A stretch of DNA of 64,000 bases from Eledone cirrhosa. Its lineage: Eukaryota. This document shows, piece after piece, positions 12,729 through 57,380 of this stretch (positions are counted from its first letter, which is position 1; each line of letters begins with the position of its first letter). Made by a program: the position numbers and the translations under genes. The notes under the pieces were generated by a model, which saw only the letters and a list, made by a program, of their open reading frames with translations, was not told the DNA's origin and ran no database searches. Location: positions 16,926,001 to 16,990,000 of the forward strand of contig OZ024752.1 of assembly GCA_964016885.1 (NCBI GenBank). Direction: 5' to 3'.

Positions 12729-12849
12729 TTATTGACACGTGTTTCTATAACAGTTACATAACCTGAAAACAGCTGCTATCTACAAAGTATTAGTTATGCA
12801 GACAATCAGTATTTCAATGTTATTATTTACTGTCATTTCATCAGAATAA
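12729..12849 (-). ncRNA. Hammerhead motif (mirror of 12871-12991)
   Basis: Left arm of the palindrome. Confidence 0.68.
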
Positions 12850-12870
12850 TATTACTGAGGACCAGTAATA

Positions 12871-12991
12871 TTATTCTGATGAAATGACAGTAAATAATAA
12901 CATTGAAATACTGATTGTCTGCATAACTAATACTTTGTAGATAGCAGCTGTTTTCAGGTTATGTAACTGCTATAGAAACACGTGTCAATAA
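12871..12991 (+). ncRNA. Hammerhead motif, canonical core, ~90-nt stem II region
   Basis: TTATT-CTGATGA-AATGACAG...CTGCTATA-GAAA-CACGTG-TC-AATAA. Confidence 0.7.
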
Positions 12992-13050: not shown

Positions 13051-13241
13051 GGAATCAGTAAGACCCCGACGGTTGAGCCCAAGCCGTTTCGACGGCTAAT
13101 TCTGAGTCCAGAATTAGCCGTCGAAACGGCTTGAGCTCAGCCGTCGGGGTCTTACTGGTTCCTATTACCCACTCTACTATCCCAAGTATTGAGTACTTTG
13201 GTGCGTTATGGTCCACCTGGTTCCTTACCACATTTCCTTCG

Positions 13242-13313
<72 letters not shown>

Positions 13314-13420
13314 CGAAGGAAATGTGGTAATGAACCAGGTGGACCATAACGCCCAAAGTACTCAATACTTAGGGTAGTAGAGTGGGTAATAGGAACGAGT
13401 AGCATCCTACTCGTTCCTAT
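13051..13420. mobile_element. Short PLE-end-like repeat in (TA)n with 5' inversion and a second inverted copy; carries the 3' half of an HHR
   Basis: IR 13051-13104/13109-13162; inverted copy 13312-13397; GAAACGGCT..AGCCGTC; relatives at 50940-51060 and 54053-54197. Confidence 0.7.
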
Positions 13421-21061: not shown

Positions 21062-21976
21062 AACAAAGTCAATCTGTAAACGCAGAACTGTATATTTCAA
21101 AAAACGTTGCAACCGGAGGAAGACAGGAAGACGATACTTTGGTTCGTGGAAACGTTCGCTGGCAAAGAACGGGAAAAAAACGAATAATACGTCATTAATA
21201 GGAGCGGTGAAAAACAATTACGCGCAAAGACAGAACCACGTTTATGGTATAAAGGAGGTCGTAGACTAATGTTCTCTTAGGTGGTGCATAGAGACGTTCT
21301 CTGGCAATGAACGAAAAAACGAAGATAATAAGTCATATGTGGAGCGTGGAGAACAATAGCACGCAAAGACAAAACCACGTAAATGGTACAGCAGAAGTCG
21401 TAGACTAAAATTCTAACTAGGAGACCAAATGAATCTCCGCTACAGAGTTAAGAACAAAGTAAATAAAAACAATACAGAAGTAATAGAAACAAATAAATAC
21501 ATACACGCAAACAGATACGTACATACACAAGCATACGCAAAACCTTACCAAGGTATACAAAACCACGCACATATAAATATGTGTGTGTGTGTATGCTTGT
21601 GTACAAATAAATAAATAATTATATAAACGTATATAAGTAAATAAATACGTATATAACAAGCGCACACACATACCTACATATAAATACACGAATGTTCGGA
21701 GACGTAAGTCAACTAAAACAAGAAGTACACATATACACACACCCACCATACGTACGAACCTGCATACTCACGCAGACGCAAAACTCCCGTATACACATAG
21801 CCAAACCCTAAATACCAGAATATGTAAAAATTATACGCCATAACAGTCAAATATACGTACGAGAAGGTATACTTACCTTCACAAAACATACGGGTAATAT
21901 ATACTTACCTATGCAAATAAGTAAAGGAATAAACAAAACATAGAATAGAATTCGTTCTATTAAGTATTCTAACGCC

Positions 21977-23779
21977 GTGCACGTCCATTCCGACAAAACT
22001 GGCAACCTATATCAAGTGGAGCGCAGTACTTACCATCAACTACTACATAATGCTGTAACTAAGGATTACCGTAAAACTAATCGGTGCGTCATCAATGAAA
22101 TCAACGATGCTGGGTTTAAAATCACATCTGATCTCAACATCCTGGACCGGACCGAACCTCTGGACCCTATCTCTCCCCACTTTACCCTGAAGGATCACAA
22201 ATCCAATTTTCCGAACAACCCCTCTATTCGGCTTATTAACCCTACGAAGTCCGATTTAGGTAGACTTAGTAAAACGATTCTTGATAGAATTATACCTGAA
22301 ATTAGAAGTTTGTCCCCTCTCGCACTGTGGAACAATTCTTTCGCGGTGATTGATTGGTTCAACGGCATATGTAACAAGGAACATTGCCGTTTTATCCAAT
22401 TCGACATCAACAATTACTACTCCTCCATCACTTTACCACTTCTCCTTAGAGCTATCAATTTCGCTAAAACACTCACAGTGGTTAAGGATTTCGAAGTTGA
22501 TGTCATCCTTAATGCCCGAAAGTCGGTGATTAATTTCGACGACTCTATTTGGATTAAAAAATCCAATAGTACCCCATTCGACGGGAGTATGGGCGCCAGT
22601 GACTCTGCGGAGGTTACTGATCTTATTGGCCTTTTCCTTCTTTTCTCTATCAAGGACGAATTCCCCAACGCGGGCGGTGGTTTGTACCGTGACGATGGTC
22701 TTTTGACCATGACTAAGTGCGGACCTCGTGCTTGCGACAGGTTCAGAAAAGAACTCACAGCCTTCTTTAAAGGCTTCAACCTCTCTATACAGGTTGAGGC
22801 CAATCTCTCGGTCGTTAATTACCTCGACGTTACCCTCAATTTATTGAATGGGTTGTATTACCCGTATAGAAAGCCGAATGATACGCTTAATTACATAAGT
22901 AGGCATTCCAACCATCCTGCCAGCATAACCAAGAACCTGGTAAGAAACGTTTCGTTGAGGCTTTCCCGTCTTTCCACCAACGAGCGCATTTTCAACGACC
23001 ATTCCACTTATTACAATGAAGCTCTTGCTCGAAGTGGATTTGTCGATAAGGTAGTATATACAGAGTACGAGAATAGACCTAGAAGAAATAGATTCCGTCG
23101 CATTTGTTGGTTTAACCCACCATATAATATGGAGGTGGCCACACCATTAGCTAAGATCTTTCTTTCCCCTATTACGAAGCATTTTCCTCCTACACATAAA
23201 TATAGTAAAATTTTTAATAGAAATACTATTAAAATTTCTTACTCTACGACTCCTAACCTTGCACATAACATCACAGCTTCAAATTTAGCAAAACTACCTA
23301 GCCGTAGGAACACGTGCAACCCTGTAGTTAGTACTAACTGTAATTGTAGGAATCGGGCTGATTGCCCCCTATCCGGGAAATGCCTCTCTAGTAACATTGT
23401 CTACAAATGTAAGGTTGTAACACCCACGTCCCGTAGGGCTTACATAGGGTTAACCGCCAATAGTTTCAAGCAGCGTCTTTACATGCATACCCATTCTTTT
23501 CGTTACCCTCTAAGAAGGAATATGACGTCACTTTCAGCTTATATCTGGAGTCTAAAAGACAACCACACCCAATATAAGTTACACTGGGAGATCCTAGCTA
23601 GGGCTAGATCGTATAACGGAAATAAAAGACCACGTGACCTCTGCGCCGCTGAGGCCCTGGAAATACTCTACGCCACAGACCACATCTTAAACAAAAAATC
23701 TGAGGCAATTTCGGCTTGTAAACATAAATTGCACAAAACTTTCCTGTATTACAGCCCCACGTTATACCCTAACGGATAG
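21977..23779 (+). CDS. PLE reverse transcriptase + GIY-YIG (5'-truncated, uninterrupted 600 aa; Naiad-like motifs)
   Basis: LKDHK, RLINPTKS, QFDI..YY, MG..DSAE, GLYRDDGL, SNHP, CNCR..CPL.GKC, IVY..AYIG. Confidence 0.92.
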   Translation: MHVHSDKTGNLYQVERSTYHQLLHNAVTKDYRKTNRCVINEINDAGFKITSDLNILDRTEPLDPISPHFTLKDHKSNFPNNPSIRLINPTKSDLGRLSKTILDRIIPEIRSLSPLALWNNSFAVIDWFNGICNKEHCRFIQFDINNYYSSITLPLLLRAINFAKTLTVVKDFEVDVILNARKSVINFDDSIWIKKSNSTPFDGSMGASDSAEVTDLIGLFLLFSIKDEFPNAGGGLYRDDGLLTMTKCGPRACDRFRKELTAFFKGFNLSIQVEANLSVVNYLDVTLNLLNGLYYPYRKPNDTLNYISRHSNHPASITKNLVRNVSLRLSRLSTNERIFNDHSTYYNEALARSGFVDKVVYTEYENRPRRNRFRRICWFNPPYNMEVATPLAKIFLSPITKHFPPTHKYSKIFNRNTIKISYSTTPNLAHNITASNLAKLPSRRNTCNPVVSTNCNCRNRADCPLSGKCLSSNIVYKCKVVTPTSRRAYIGLTANSFKQRLYMHTHSFRYPLRRNMTSLSAYIWSLKDNHTQYKLHWEILARARSYNGNKRPRDLCAAEALEILYATDHILNKKSEAISACKHKLHKTFLYYSPTLYPNG

Positions 23780-24705
23780 CACGATCTATACGTGGATATT
23801 TTACGTCTTGATGTGGGAGCTAAGTATGTTTTGTTTATTCCTTTACTTATTTGCATAGGTAAGTATATATTACCCGTATGTTTTGTGAAGGTAAGTATAC
23901 CTTCTCGTACGTATATTTGACTGTTATGGCGTATAATTTTTACATATTCTGGTATTTAGGGTTTGGCTGTGTGTATACGGGAGTTTTGCGTCTGCGTGAG
24001 TATGCAGGTTCGTACGTATGGTGGGTGTGTGTATATGTGTACTTCTTGTTTTAGTTGACTTACGTCTCCGAACATTCGTGTATTTATATGTAGGTATGTG
24101 TGTGCGCTTGTTATATACGTATTTATTTACTTATATACATTTATATAATTATTTATTTATTTGTACACAAGCATACACAAACACACATATTTATATGTGC
24201 GTGGTTTTGTATACCTTGGTAAGGTTTTGCGTATGCTTGTGTATGTACGTATCTGTTTGCGTGTATGTATTTATTTGTTTCTATTACTTCTGTATTGTTT
24301 TTATTTACTTTGTTCTTAACTCTGTAGCGGAGATTCATTTGGTCTCCTAGTTAGAATTTTAGTCTACGACTTCTGCTGTACCATTTACGTGGTTTTGTCT
24401 TTGCGTGCTATTGTTCTCCACGCTCCACATATGACTTATTATCTTCGTTTTTTCGTTCATTGCCAGAGAACGTCTCTATGCACCACCTAAGAGAACATTA
24501 GTCTACGACCTCCTTTATACCATAAACGTGGTTCTGTCTTTGCGCGTAATTGTTTTTCACCGCTCCTATTAATGACGTATTATTCGTTTTTTTCCCGTTC
24601 TTTGCCAGCGAACGTTTCCACGAACCAAAGTATCGTCTTCCTGTCTTCCTCCGGTTGCAACGTTTTTTGAAATATACAGTTCTGCGTTTACAGATTGACT
24701 TTGTT

Positions 24706-24756
24706 AGTTTCAGAAGATCCCGTTAAGGGTGAAAGCAGCGATTCTTTGCTTAAACT
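24706..24756 (+). ncRNA. pLTR hammerhead of PLE B, A4 core variant
   Basis: AGTTT-CAGAAGA-TCCCGTTAAGGGT-GAAA-GCA..TGC-TT-AAACT. Confidence 0.7.
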
Positions 24757-24806
24757 TTAATCTGTTATTTTAATAAATATATATATATATATATATATAT
24801 ATTTTA

Positions 24807-24909
<103 letters not shown>

Positions 24910-24974
24910 GAAAAAAGATGAAATCGAAAATGCAACTGGAGTCTTTTTTTTATAAAAAATATATATTTATTTGG

Positions 24975-25018
24975 TTCCTTTACCGGTTTCGCAGTTCTTC
25001 TGCTTTTCAAAAGTAGAA
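24975..25018 (-). ncRNA. Minimal hammerhead, U3-A8 variant
   Basis: Reverse complement reads CTT-TTGAAAA-GCAG.AAGAA.CTGC-GAAA-CCGG-TA-AAG. Confidence 0.7.
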
Positions 25019-25129
25019 TTGAAATGGAGGGTTTGTGGTTTTTCTCACCTGGTTGGTGTTTGAATGTTACTTTTGTTTTATATGGAAAAAAGTGGCTCGA
25101 AATGCTACACATGTGCCAGTATATATAAT

Positions 25130-39311: not shown

Positions 39312-39389
<78 letters not shown>

Positions 39390-39526
39390 AGTGTAATTTT
39401 CTACACAAAACGAAGGTTATAGAGAAAATTGAGGTTGGTAATGGCACATGGAATATATAAGAGACAGAATATTTTTTTGTGAAAAAACATAATTTTATAA
39501 GGTAAGGAAATAATAAAGGGTATAAA

Positions 39527-39573
39527 AAATGACCGGTTTCGATGGGTCTGCAAAAGCCATCTTTTCAAATGTT
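39527..39573 (-). ncRNA. Minimal hammerhead, U3-A8 variant (weak stem I)
   Basis: Reverse complement reads AT-TTGAAAA-GATGG..CCATC-GAAA-CCGG-TC-AT. Confidence 0.58.
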
Positions 39574-39875
39574 GATTAATATTAAGAAAAATTAATAATA
39601 CGAAGAGTTAAAATTTGAGATTTGAAAATTCAAGTATAAAATTCATTGTGGGATTTCATAGCAGTTTTCATCTAGGTAGCAACAACAGGTTGACTGCTGT
39701 GTCCCTTTCTGGTAGTGAATGAGAAGTTATTTGGGGTGTGGGTTATTTTATAAAGGTCAGATTTAGCAATCGCCAACTGGCCAGCTGCTGGTCAGTGAGG
39801 GGGTGGAAGCAATATACATACACATATCTTCCTGTTGTGGGTAGGAGAGTGGAGCGTGATAGAAAGGGATTTAGT

Positions 39876-40011
39876 GCACTTCAAAAGGCATGCTTGCTGG
39901 GAACAGCAAGAACCCTCCGATACGTCCTGAATATCTGAGGCTGCAGGTAGTGGCTTGATATTCATTTCAACAAACTTTCCAGTTAACTAACATCAATGAC
40001 TGAGACTCAGA

Positions 40012-47923: not shown

Positions 47924-49278
47924 TTAAAGACGAATCCAATGTGGCAGAAAATAATCATTATAGTCAGCACTGTCCGCATTTCGAAGTCTGGATTTTTCTT
48001 GAGCTGGTGGGAAAAAGTAAGTAACTTTTCCTTTACATAAGAATACAGCCCACCAGCTGAAACTACCTACAGAAGAAATCAAATGATCACTGCTAGATAG
48101 AATAGCCATATCTTCTATTGCTGAGTTACCTTTTACAAAATAAGTACTATTGTCAAATATATTTTTTTCACACCATGGTATGCCATTAGAACAAACAATA
48201 AATATCACATTTTTATAATGAGATCGAAACCATTCTTTTGCCTTTATGAAATATTCCTTTGTAGCCACGTTATATCCATGACTGTCGTTAACCATATCAC
48301 CACGTCGTACATGGATTCCCACCAACGTCCAGTTCTTTACTGATGTATTTATAGAAATGTTTTCATGAGTTTTAACAAAGTTCCTTAGAATTCTAACAGC
48401 TTTCTGTTTAATGTTCTTTTTAAAAGTGAACTGGGAACGGATTTCATCATATATGTGTTCAAAATACTTGTAAGACTGTAAATATGTTCCAATAATAATA
48501 TTGTTATTATTACTAATATTAAAGAAACTAGGATCAAAAGAACTGGCATGGTGTCCATATTTTCTTTTAGCCTTATTGCAAGAAGATTTATTTTTCTCAA
48601 AACCGTATATATTAAATATTTTTTGTAAATTTATGTTATAATTACGAATAGTCACATTCATATTTTTTAGTCTTGCTAAACCTAAACCCGTTGCAAAAAT
48701 AAACATTTGATTACCCAACCTTCCAATTAATTTGATGCACACGTATTTTTGCGTAGTTCTTTGTCTTTCCAAACTTGTAGTGTTATGGTAGGTAGGTGGT
48801 TGAGTACTTGTTGTTCGTGTTTCCAAACTTGTAGTGTTATGGTAGGTAGGTGGTTGAGTGCTTGTTGTTCGTGTTTCCAAACTTGTAGTGTTATGGTAGG
48901 TAGGTGGTTGAGTGCTTGTTGTTCGTGTTTCCAAACTTGTAGTGTTATGGTAGGTAGGTGGTTGAGTGCTTGTTGTTCGTGATTCCAAACTTGTAGTGTT
49001 ATGGTAGGTAGGTGGTTGAGTGCTTGTTGTTCGTGATTCCAAACTTGTAGTATTATGGTAGGTAGGTGAGTGAGTAGATGTTATACGTTTCTTCAACATG
49101 GTCGTCTTAAGAAGAGTAGACGGTGTGGTGAACTTTTCCAATTTGCTATTTCTTATAAAATTGACTGGTGATTTGAAATTAACTATTCTTTGTTGAATTC
49201 CGGTGAAGGGAATTCCCATAGAGACAAAATACAGGGAAACAACAACCAAGATACAAAGCCATAGAAACTTGTGTTGAT
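47924..49278 (-). CDS. Galactoside alpha-1,2-fucosyltransferase (CAZy GT11, FUT1/FUT2-like), main/terminal coding exon
   Basis: GRLGNQMF, GTYLQSYKYF, GIHVRRGD, D.AILS, SVGSFSWW; N-terminal TM segment FLWLCILVVVSLYFVSMGI; acceptor ttcttttattttacAG at 49279-49297, so the listed ATG at 49579 is probably intronic. Confidence 0.9.
48762..49084 (-). repeat. 54-bp coding tandem repeat x6 (TTSTQPPTYHNTTSLE[S/T]R)
   Basis: ttccaaactt recurs at 48767, 48821, 48875, 48929, 48983 and 49037. Confidence 0.95.
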
Positions 49279-49839
49279 CTGTAAAATAAAAGAAGAAACT
49301 ATATAATGTAACTAGCTGGCCCCGTGCCGTCAAAAATGATGGCTCATTGTAATATCTATACATAATATAAACAAGAGATGTTTGTTGTTTGTTTGTTGGC
49401 TCTTTCGCGCTCACTCGCAAGAGTGATACAAACACACAAACGCACAGCCAATGTGTAGTCCATTCGCTATACATATACACAGACAAGTGTGACGAATCAT
49501 AGAACGCTGGACTGCTATAGTTTCTCACCACTCTCCCTTCCCCAGTCATCACATACATGTGTGTGTATGTAATAATCATTTCTCTAAGTGTGTCTGTTTA
49601 TATATATGTATGTGTAGATGCATGCGTGTATTTGTAATTGTATAGTCTATGTATCTTTCTAAATAAAACACACACACACACACGCACAAATATTATATAT
49701 AAATATAATTTACACAAACACACACACACGCACAAACAATCACATAATCATAACAGCCAATGTGTGTAGCCAATTTACTATACATATACACACACATACA
49801 GGAGTAGCGAATGTTAGACGCTGCTTCCTGTAGTTTGTC

Positions 49840-54602: not shown

Positions 54603-55304
54603 ATATATATATATGAATAAAGTTAGTCCTTCATCAGTGATCTTCCAACCTTCATTGGTATTTCATCGCTTTATAGACCATATACCTCCGGTTGGTGCGA
54701 GCAACGGCTAAAGAAAGTCGTTGGGACACGTAAATAAGGGGAACGAGCGAGACTGTAAACAAACAAAGATGGTAATGCAACGAAAAGTGAGGAAGAAAGA
54801 GTCAAGGCCCAGATTTCCATGAATATAAGTTCGGTGAAATCGTGAACGAGAGAGAATAAAGACCATCAAACCTAGTCGAAATGTGACCCAGGAAGGAATT
54901 TCGCACAGGTCAAACGGGAGGAAGAAGGAGTCTAGTCCCTTAATTCGGTGAACATAAGTTCTGTGAAATTATAGACAAGAGAGAAAAAAGGAACAACCAG
55001 CCTGGTCAAGCGTGCGCGAGAAAAGAATTACGCACAGGTGAAACGGGAGGAAGTAGGAGAGGTAGTAGCAGAGAGTGAGTGAGTGAAGGGCGATGAAGAG
55101 GCTAACAGAGAGAGTGACTGTTAGAGAGGGTAAAGGGAGGTGAAAGATACAGAGAAAGAGGAAGCAGTAAGAACGAATATATATATATATATATTGGTAA
55201 ACGGAATAGAAAATGCTGACAAATTGTTCACAGTGGAAAATAGTTTAATTAGGAATAAATGAGAATTAGTAATTGTATTGGTTAGTATTCAGTTTTGGTT
55301 TTAA

Positions 55305-55345
55305 GTTTTACCGGTTGCGCATTTCTAAATGCTTTTCAAAAATAA
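55305..55345 (-). ncRNA. Decayed U3-A8 hammerhead (GAAA changed to GCAA)
   Basis: Reverse complement reads TTT-TTGAAAA-GCATTT.AG.AAATGC-GCAA-CCGG-TA-AAA. Confidence 0.5.
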
Positions 55346-55699
55346 TTTTGAGATAGAGCGTCCGTGATGTTTGCTCCGATCTGATTAGTTTTGGGAATTC
55401 TACCTGTTTTTATGTTAAAAAAGTGGCTCCAGCGCTATTAAAATTGGTTTTTGCGCCAATTCGTGTTGCAAAAATTCTTGTGGTCAAAACAATTTTAATT
55501 GGTCGGTAGAGGTCATGTGAATGTAAAAAATTGATTTTGCGCCAAGACTGAGAAATGACTCTTTCACAACAAATATGTGTGTGTGTGTGTATGTGTGTGT
55601 GTGTGTGTAGTTGTAGTAAAGTGTTCGTTGTTGTGATAATGGTTAGCAGGGATGTGTGTGCGAACCGCAGCCTGTTGACAGTTCAAATGCTTATTAAGA

Positions 55700-55778
<79 letters not shown>

Positions 55779-55958
55779 CAGAGTAATTCGTGGTAGAGGG
55801 ATGGTCAGTAGGAATGTGTCTGTAAGTGAGTGGGGGATATTTTAACATGTTAAAAGATATTTTTCAGCTGTCTTATACGGAGAAGTGTGTGTGTGTGTGT
55901 GTGTATGTGTGTGTTTGTATATAAGTATCTTTGTATGTTAATGTACGCGTGTGTATGT

Positions 55959-55991
<33 letters not shown>

Positions 55992-56304
55992 AGAATGTGT
56001 GTGTGTGTGTGTGTGGGTGGACCAGTATTTTTTTCCTGGTAAAATGGTGTACATTATTCGATATTTTCAGTAAAATCGATTCTCTCAATAGAACATCAAA
56101 AACCTTAACAATAAAAGGTGTGAAATGATATTCACTATATATATATATATATATATATATACCTATATTCACTATATATATATATTTTTTTTTGTGTTGC
56201 ACCATAGAACATGTGTGTTTACGTATGTCATTGTGTTTATATGTGGGTAGAGATGTGTGCTGATGTAGGTATGTATGTTGACGTGTGTATGTTGTGGGTT
56301 CGTC

Positions 56305-57380
56305 TTAGGGAGAAGTGTTTAGACGGGGTCCGTATTTGTTAATAAAGTAAGATTCCTTGCTGATGCGCTGGGTGTGGGTGGCATTATCTTTAAATTTGCA
56401 GAGGGGAAAGATTCTGAAGTTGGGATGATTTTGGGCGGCACAGGTATCAATGTGTTCACTCAGTGGTATTTTCCTGTATTCCCGTATTTTAATTTGGGAT
56501 CTATGGACAGTCATGCGTTGGCGGAGGCTGTTTTTGGTCTGGCCTATGTATTGTTCTCGACAACCTGAGCAAGTTAATACATATATTAGATTTTCCAATG
56601 CACATGTGAAATTGTGTTTTACTATAAAACGTTGTCCTTCTTTGAAATAGAATTCCGAACCCTCTATTAGGTTGATGCAAATGCCACAGTTGGGTCTATC
56701 GCATTTTTTTACTGTGGGTTTCGTTGTTGTGGTTGGCAGTACTTTGGCATGTGTTAGGATGTTTTTCATTGACTTAGATTGTCTTTTGCTCTTTATGATA
56801 TCGTGTGTTCGTAGGATTTGGTTCATTCTATGGTCCTTTTTCAACACAGGGATGTTCTGGAGGATGGTGTCGAAGGCCTCATTGTTGAGGGGGTTGTGTG
56901 TGGAACTTTTAGTTTCGGTTGATTTACTTTAGGGTGTCTAAGGTCCTGGGTACTGAGTTTTAGGGCACGTTGGAATCAATTGTCAATTAGTGATGCAGGG
57001 TAGTCCCTGCCTATGAGTGTGTCCTTTAGTTCTTGTAGCCGTAAGTAGCAGGTGTTTTTATTGGAGACTATAGTACAGATTCTCTTGGCTAAGTTGTAGG
57101 GAATATTAATTTTAACGTGTCTAGGGTGGCAAGAGTTGAAAGGAAGATATTGCTTGGAGTCTGTGGGCTTGTAGTATATGTCTGTTTCTATTTTTTGTTA
57201 TGGATCTTAATGAGGATGTCGAGGAAGGGGAGTTGTTGATGGCTGTATTCCATCGTGAAGTTAATATTCGTGTTGAGCCCATTTATAAGGGTGTAAAATT
57301 CTTTAAGTTTTTCGATGTTTTCGTGCCAAAGGATGAAGCAGTCATCTAGATATCGCTTCCAGGGGTTTGGGGATGTGCTG
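56305..57380 (-). pseudogene. PLE (Neptune-like) RT C-terminus + GIY-YIG, disrupted
   Basis: WKRYLDD, LPFLD, CDRPNCGIC, FTC..NLIY.LTC..C..QYIGQT..LRQRMTVH. The 3' region may extend to ~55190, which would place the HHR at 55305 in its pLTR. Confidence 0.85.

What the first reader, a model, noticed from the sequence alone, without database searches (positions are those of the whole stretch)
24975..25018. U3-A8 compensated-core hammerhead family (UUGAAAA) with covarying stem II
Seen: three diverged minus-strand copies (24975, 39527, 55305) share TTGAAAA ... G(A/C)AA-CCGG-TH, but their paired stem II differs (GCAG/CTGC, GATGG/CCATC, GCATTT/AAATGC). Established: C3-G8 is a Watson-Crick tertiary pair in the active HHR, and U3-A8 can substitute. 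Inference: the double change is compensatory rather than decay. The 55305 copy lies downstream of, and in sense with, the Neptune-like ORF at 56305.
Basis: partly seen in the sequence, partly recalled or inferred. Interest (0 to 1): 0.72.

Follow-up and report, generated by a model that had tools for sequence, protein, structure and literature searches.

The report
Penelope hammerheads, one with broken core
These three short motifs are the hammerhead-shaped RNA ends of three abundant Penelope-like jumping genes with an already published U-A core swap, but one family spread to about 12,000 copies after changing a second, normally invariant core base, so self-cutting is likely weak or not needed for these elements to jump.

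Summary
The three motifs are real (0.003 expected by chance). Each is the minimal type-I hammerhead in the pseudo-LTR of a different Neptune-type Penelope-like retrotransposon family.

U3-A8 is the family consensus, not decay: 23,324 genomic matches, against 206 C3-A8, 193 U3-G8 and 113 C3-G8. Stem II pairs 1-4 are Watson-Crick in 8 of 8 family representatives. This variant is published (S. mansoni Cercyon, PMC4209133), and this scan noted it before, also in this genome.

Less ordinary: the GCAA of copy 55305 is not a private mutation. A13C is fixed in about 12,500 copies, including young full-length elements with intact ORFs. It is derived, and C13 is shared by all three subfamilies seen. A13 changes reportedly cost 10-100-fold in rate.

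5' ends of near-full-length copies do not pile up at the cut site in the intact family (1 of 83) or the A13C family (3 of 80). This fits in-vitro data that hammerhead cleavage is not needed for insertion (PMC11167929). Cleavage was not tested. Verdict: known variant plus a modest, testable new core variant.

The parts
24981..25010 (-). Copy 1: minimal hammerhead motif, U3-A8 core, 4-bp stem II, intact G12-A13-A14, palindromic helix III; predicted cut between 24981 and 24980; family C
24903..25102 (-). About 200-nt 5'-truncated 3' end of Neptune-type family C (intact copies have a 775-aa RT-EN and a 410-aa ORF1); it ends at a (TA)n run and is not part of the Hydra-clade fragment just upstream
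39531..39568 (-). Copy 2: U3-A8 motif, 5-bp stem II with 11-nt loop, stem I only 2 contiguous bp; family 2
39385..39881 (-). 5'-truncated 3' UTR/pLTR of family 2, 94% identical to L136, which has a Neptune-type RT-EN about 1.1 kb upstream
55309..55339 (-). Copy 3: U3-A8 motif with C in place of A13 (window 55317), 5-bp stem II, stem I of three U-A pairs; family N
55188..57362 (-). 5'-truncated, frameshifted copy of Neptune-type family N: RT end, Cx4CxxC linker, GIY-YIG EN, (CA)n-rich 3' UTR of about 1 kb, hammerhead, short tail end at (TA)n
56305..56928 (-). GIY-YIG endonuclease frame of family N (PF01541, E 1.7e-07), 98% identical to intact 784-aa copies

Best explanation
The three motifs are the minimal type-I hammerhead motifs in the pseudo-LTRs of three related Neptune-type Penelope-like retrotransposon families, each with U3-A8 as its fixed consensus; they likely cut RNA only weakly, as dimers and probably with help from the element's protein, and cutting is likely not required for copying, which would explain how family N spread to about 12,500 copies after fixing A13C. 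Shown: motif, position about 1.0-1.4 kb after the RT-EN stop and 150-180 nt before ORF1 of a tandem neighbour, family-wide fixation of U3-A8 and of C13, intact ORFs in C13 elements, and scattered 5' ends. Inferred: the self-complementary ACCGGU forms helix III between two copies; U3-A8 keeps the active-state 3-8 pair and was inherited from a common ancestor; reverse transcription starts downstream of the motif on uncut (or religated) RNA; the motif stays under selection for low-level processing of tandem or read-through transcripts, or as a folded element.
For: 2x2 counts for positions 3 and 8. ORF linkage: 18 of 22 for family N, 21 of 25 for family C, and L136 and L139 for family 2. Motif 26 of 30 identical between families C and N, against flanks of 47 of 68 and 32 of 67. 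Stem II pairs 1-4 Watson-Crick in 8 of 8 representatives, with three positions alternating between two pair types. The double-hammerhead fold of family C lies within 1.4 kcal/mol of the dimer MFE. 12,491 GCAA matches against 17 in the control; only 155 non-C at position 13 in family N, with A35/G15/T50 among the first 100, a decay spectrum. 5' ends within 3 nt of the cut: 1 of 83 (C) and 3 of 80 (N); 56 of 83 and 50 of 80 run through the intact motif. Literature: natural U3-A8 covariation, active in vitro (PMC3088659); U3-A8 in Cercyon PLEs and low, dimer-dependent activity (PMC4209133); hammerhead mutants do not affect PLE insertion in vitro and cleavage is protein-assisted (PMC11167929); A13 changes inhibit 10-100-fold (PMC4075628 citing the primary mutagenesis).
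Against: No cleavage data for any of these RNAs. For families 2, 4, 5, 9 and N the hammerhead dimer fold is 9-16 kcal/mol above the dimer MFE and stem I is 1-3 bp. None of the three monomers folds better than shuffles (z -0.41, -1.13, 0.27). So some may not cut at all. The 5'-end test cannot exclude cut-and-religated circular templates, and only 27 and 30 ends fall at or downstream of -3. The protein tree was unresolved (0 of 7 branches supported), so a single origin of U3-A8 is not shown. Neptune rests on motifs, not on a reference phylogeny.
Confidence: 0.65

Rival explanations
1. All three are efficient, required ribozymes: C13 is tolerated or compensated in the U3-A8 background or by the element's protein, and cut RNA is circularised, so genomic copies show no cut end.
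For: The rest of the core and stem II stayed unchanged through three C13 subfamilies while flanks drifted to 83-90% identity (weak, see against). The PAc hammerhead needs its protein. A circular-template model is proposed in PMC4209133.
Against: A13 changes cost 10-100-fold in minimal hammerheads. Family N has only three U-A pairs in stem I and a competing hairpin over the core. In vitro insertion does not need cleavage. The groups were picked by a motif pattern, and the oldest rests on 2 copies.
Confidence: 0.2
2. The motifs are vestigial in all these families: U3-A8 and C13 are hitch-hiking changes fixed in successive master copies, with no current selection on RNA function.
For: Weak stems I; no cut-site footprint; C13 fixed; a Hydra-clade family in the same window has fixed U4A.
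Against: 14 columns, including U3, U4, G5, A6, A8, A9, G12, A14 and ACCGGU, are invariant across 9 aligned representatives whose flanks are often unalignable. Stem II changes are always paired.
Confidence: 0.12
3. Family N RNA is cut in trans by pairing with the intact core of another family through the shared ACCGGU palindrome.
For: All U3-A8 families examined share the same helix III palindrome.
Against: Cross-family stem I would be only 2 bp (family C 5' arm with family N 3' arm; read). It would need co-expression.
Confidence: 0.03

Closest known systems
Minimal hammerheads (min-HHR) of metazoan PLE pseudo-LTRs, including the U3-A8 variant of Schistosoma mansoni Cercyon (Cervera and de la Pena 2014, PMC4209133; main text parts 1-2 of 4 read, supplement file 2 searched, file 1 not searchable)
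   Same: Type-I topology, palindromic minimal helix III, G10.1-C11.1, place in the pLTR, U3-A8 in place of C3-G8, mostly solitary or inverted-pair truncated copies.
   Different: Neptune-type host elements rather than Cercyon; about 36,000 matches (23,324 + 12,491) rather than about 1,300; shorter stems I and II; no extra base after A9 in these three copies; one family has fixed A13C, which the parts read do not mention.
Natural U3-A8 hammerheads (Perreault et al. 2011, PMC3088659; section 8 and passages read)
   Same: Same 3-8 covariation, reported there as active in vitro.
   Different: That section lists A6C, A6a, U13a and U15.1-A16.1 variants but no A13 substitution.
PAc (Poseidon, Anolis carolinensis) hammerhead (Frangieh et al. 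2024, PMC11167929; passages and abstract read)
   Same: pLTR hammerhead, two tail ends (36 nt apart in family N), no ends seen at the cut site.
   Different: C3-G8 core, overlapping the ORF start. There, dispensability was shown in vitro with made mutants; here a natural mutant family is the candidate in vivo counterpart.
Hydra-clade PLE hammerheads (Craig et al. 2021, PMC8557442; section 11, passages, supplement parts 1-2 of 59)
   Same: 3' hammerhead, (TA)n insertion.
   Different: 26 of 26 listed Hydra rows are C3-G8 with a longer helix III; the three motifs here do not belong to Hydra elements.

Membership tests
PLE minimal type-I hammerhead | Watson-Crick pair 3-8 plus U4, G5, A6, A9, G12, A14, A15.1-U16.1, H17 | tested here: met
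   All three copies; invariant in alignment A1
PLE minimal type-I hammerhead | A13 | tested here: not met
   Met in copies 1 and 2. Copy 3 and its family have C13, so copy 3 is a core variant, not a consensus member
PLE minimal type-I hammerhead | Stem II closed by G10.1-C11.1, with compensatory changes | tested here: met
   Pairs 1-4 Watson-Crick in 8 of 8 representatives
PLE minimal type-I hammerhead | Palindromic minimal helix III (dimer design) | tested here: met
   ACCGGU duplex -8.3 kcal/mol
PLE minimal type-I hammerhead | Stem I of 4-5 bp | tested here: inconclusive
   4 bp in young family C; 3, 2 and 3 bp in the window copies
PLE minimal type-I hammerhead | Located in the pLTR of a PLE | tested here: met
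   Downstream of RT-EN and upstream of the next ORF1 in tandem copies
PLE minimal type-I hammerhead | Site-specific self-cleavage as a dimer | not testable with these tools
   Needs a cleavage assay
Neptune clade of PLEs | RT followed by C-terminal GIY-YIG; GxKF, DKG, CX2-5CxxC linker, CCHH residues in EN | tested here: met
   Families C and N. Family 2 by 57% identity only
Neptune clade of PLEs | Grouping with reference Neptune RTs to the exclusion of Nematis | not tested
   No named reference set in hand; the 120 listed homologues carry no clade names
Hydra clade of PLEs (considered for copy 1) | Motif linked to a DKT / CxCX5C ORF | tested here: not met
   Of 30 Hydra-ORF loci only L061 has such a motif downstream in sense by the printed strands, and it is a family 2 motif with its own EN fragment in L139; Hydra copies end in their own motif

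The most novel reading that the evidence does not exclude
Family N is an autonomous, recently active Penelope-like element that amplified to about 12,500 copies with a catalytically crippled hammerhead (U3-A8 plus A13C) while keeping the fold: a natural in vivo demonstration that PLE hammerheads are retained for something other than efficient self-cleavage, with the sister family C as a built-in control.
Probability: 0.35. Interest if true: 0.62.

Novelty: new variant of a known kind. Interest (0 to 1): 0.4.

Why it matters
Why Penelope-like elements carry hammerheads is open: PMC8557442 calls the function unclear and allows that hammerheads may parasitise PLEs, and PMC11167929 found cleavage unnecessary in vitro. 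Two related, young, high-copy families in one genome have motifs 26 of 30 identical, one with A13 and one with C13, and both have intact ORFs. That pair makes the question testable with a few short RNAs. If C13 cleaves well, it is an unexpected core tolerance; if not, it is a natural knock-down that kept transposing. The U3-A8 swap itself adds only another example.

Tried and rejected
(1) Copy 1 as the 3' end of the Hydra-clade fragment at 26447-25290: rejected. Hydra loci have another 3' UTR and motif, and copy 1's homology to family C starts at 25102.
(2) Copy 3's GCAA as private decay and its place behind the Neptune ORF as chance: rejected.
(3) An ancestral A13 subfamily inside family N: not seen; the 155 non-C matches look like decay.
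(4) Cut-site footprint in 5' ends: none. 80 of 98 family N and 83 of 116 family C anchor matches were examined. The -216 pile is an artefact of 3' UTR duplications.
(5) U3-G8 intermediate subfamily: 6 of the first 100 family 4 matches have G8, above the 0.8% overall, not resolved.
(6) Protein tree: unresolved; rows under 90 aa were dropped, leaving 10.
(7) One search used a structure string out of register by two columns on an alignment not fitted to structure; its numbers are not used, and one search replaces it.
(8) Rfam: no hammerhead hit.
(9) Sequencing runs: no RNA holder listed.
(10) An alternative core register using the inner GAAA of copy 3: rejected by inspection, no stem II or A-U closing pair.
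(11) Papers not held: Lunse et al. 2017 on about 150,000 PLE hammerhead variants (number recalled), Nelson and Uhlenbeck 2008 (two papers), Martick and Scott 2006. Lunse and its supplement may already list A13 variants. Searches for A13C and Neptune-hammerhead-cephalopod found no report.

Full report
Observation. Three minus-strand motifs of the form UUGAAAA - stem II - G(A/C)AA-CCGG-UH lie at U3 = 25010, 39568 and 55339. A scan of both strands finds only these three; 300 block-wise dinucleotide shuffles give 0.003 such hits with a palindromic helix III. Rfam has no hammerhead match among 148 window hits. The genome is a 3.0-Gb animal assembly; an earlier scan note calls it cephalopod, which I did not check.

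U3-A8 is the consensus. With the tail GAAACCGGTH the genome has 23,324 U3-A8 matches against 59 in the reversed-pattern control. There are 206 C3-A8 and 193 U3-G8, mostly single-mutant copies of the same families at about 0.9% each. There are 113 C3-G8, mostly one small unrelated family (its control count was 158). So the double change is not decay of individual copies. These patterns apply no stem II filter.

What carries the motifs. Copy 3 is the 3' end of the Neptune-type element at 57362-55188. 18 of 22 independent loci of its endonuclease have the identical motif 898-1403 nt after the stop; the other 4 show none; 7 further hits are local segmental duplicates of the window. Intact copies have a 784-aa RT-GIY-YIG frame and a 455-aa upstream ORF1. 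Copy 1 is a 200-nt truncated end of family C: 21 of 25 loci of its endonuclease have the motif 1.0-1.4 kb downstream, and intact copies have a 775-aa frame 56% identical to family N. My first guess that copy 1 ends the adjacent Hydra-clade fragment was wrong. Copy 2 is a truncated end of family 2, whose RT-EN (57% to both) lies upstream in L136 and L139. [quoted passage not shown] In tandem copies the motif also lies 148-177 nt before an anchor at the ORF1 start, as expected of a pseudo-LTR. Many short copies are head-to-head inverted pairs ending in (TA)n. Family N has two tail ends 36 nt apart.

Covariation. Across 8 family or subfamily representatives, stem II pairs 1-4 are all Watson-Crick: G-C in 8, C-G or A-U, A-U or U-A, U-A or G-C. 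Families C and N share 26 of 30 motif positions, against 47 of 68 and 32 of 67 in the flanks. This supports selection on the fold in master lineages, but the families are kin, so it amounts to a few events. Stem I is the weak part: 4 bp in young family C, 1-3 bp elsewhere. The double-hammerhead fold is near the dimer MFE only for family C (-21.1 against -22.5 kcal/mol); for family N it is -8.7 against -17.9. Monomer z-scores are unremarkable.

A13C. The GCAA pattern has 12,491 matches against 17 in the control, nearly all family N among the first 100. All 18 unlinked endonuclease-selected loci with the motif and all 6 fetched full-length regions have C13. Within the family only 155 matches have another base there, A35/G15/T50 among the first 100, as expected from decay of C. 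Three subfamilies differing in loop II all have C13. The closest protein relative (family 5, 71-75% in the EN region for three loci) and the closest motif relative (family C) both have A13, so C13 is derived. The family is young: ORF1 regions of 30 copies have a median 99.0% identity to one reference copy, against 97.4% for 29 family C copies. Contigs filed under two other organism labels cover the motif with no other letter at position 13; whether these are related species or carry-over is unknown. PMC4075628, citing the primary mutagenesis, puts A13 changes at 10-100-fold inhibition. Searches found no paper with A13C, but Lunse et al. 2017 was not held.

Genomic footprint of cleavage. An earlier scan note reported copies beginning at the cut point in another genome, so I mapped 5' ends of ORF1-bearing copies. 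Within 3 nt of the predicted cut: 1 of 83 in family C and 3 of 80 in family N, two of these three being local duplications. 56 of 83 and 50 of 80 continue through the intact motif; the rest are scattered. Templates were therefore mostly uncut or religated in both families. This agrees with PMC11167929: hammerhead mutants do not affect insertion in vitro, cleavage needs the protein, and no reads ended at the cut site.

Mechanism. Shown: anatomy, fixation, linkage, intact frames, scattered ends. Inferred: tandem or read-through RNA brings two motifs together; ACCGGU forms helix III between them; U3-A8 stands in for C3-G8 (natural and active in vitro per PMC3088659); cleavage is slow and likely protein-assisted; copying starts at the tail on unprocessed RNA, so a 10-100-fold loss in family N was affordable. 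The rest of the core and stem II stayed unchanged across C13 subfamilies while flanks drifted to 83-90%, which hints at continued constraint, but the groups were motif-selected and the oldest rests on 2 copies.

Comparison and novelty. U3-A8 in PLE minimal hammerheads is published for S. mansoni Cercyon (about 1,300 hits; PMC4209133), and this scan noted it repeatedly, also in this genome (where the word A13C met no note; a look-up by the family N sequence found nothing). The finding as framed is a new member of a known kind. The fixed A13C in a young autonomous family is a new variant as far as the held literature shows.

Papers seen: PMC4209133 (parts 1-2 of 4, supplement file 2 searched); PMC8557442 (passages, section 11, supplement parts 1-2 of 59); PMC3088659 (passages, section 8); PMC11167929 (abstract, passages); PMC4075628, PMC3907566, PMC6765202, PMC6257768 and bioRxiv 10.64898/2026.07.22.740005 (passages only; bioRxiv supplements are closed). 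Hammerhead numbering is standard knowledge. Interest 0.40.

Noticed in passing
window 21944-24790 (+), motif near 24700-24760: Hydra-clade PLE (DKT, CxCX5C; 713-aa open frames elsewhere) whose 3' hammerhead-like motif has core CAGAAGA (U4A) as family consensus: 32 identical copies among the stored loci plus single variants. Published Hydra rows all have U4. A second fixed core change in this window.
   Followed up: partly
family N against families 5 and C (L130, L181, L126): Family N protein is closest to family 5 (71-75% in EN) but its hammerhead region aligns only with family C (71-76% over 120 nt), suggesting a swap of the 3' UTR/pLTR module between families.
   Followed up: partly
L128, L130, L133: Families C and N have an upstream ORF1 (410 and 455 aa, 44% identical, no Pfam match for family C) overlapping ORF2 in another frame.
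   Followed up: no
G000:C12 about 16.93-17.45 Mb: The window lies in a tandem segmental duplication with about 60-kb spacing; at least 8 copies of the same truncated Neptune insertion.
   Followed up: no
window 47924-49597 (+): Frame resembling an alpha-1,2-fucosyltransferase with a mucin-like repeat stem (recalled motifs), inside the duplicated unit.
   Followed up: no
L190-L193: A dispersed repeat with an unpaired C3-A8 hammerhead-like string as its apparent consensus; no PLE ORF found upstream in 4 of 4.
   Followed up: no
L031-L040, L194-L203: A small C3-G8 family with the same CCGG helix III, often in inverted pairs; no consistent ORF link found.
   Followed up: partly
window 12778-12942 and 13163-13391: Long near-perfect inverted repeats, one around a (TA)n core; probably head-to-head element ends.
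   Followed up: no
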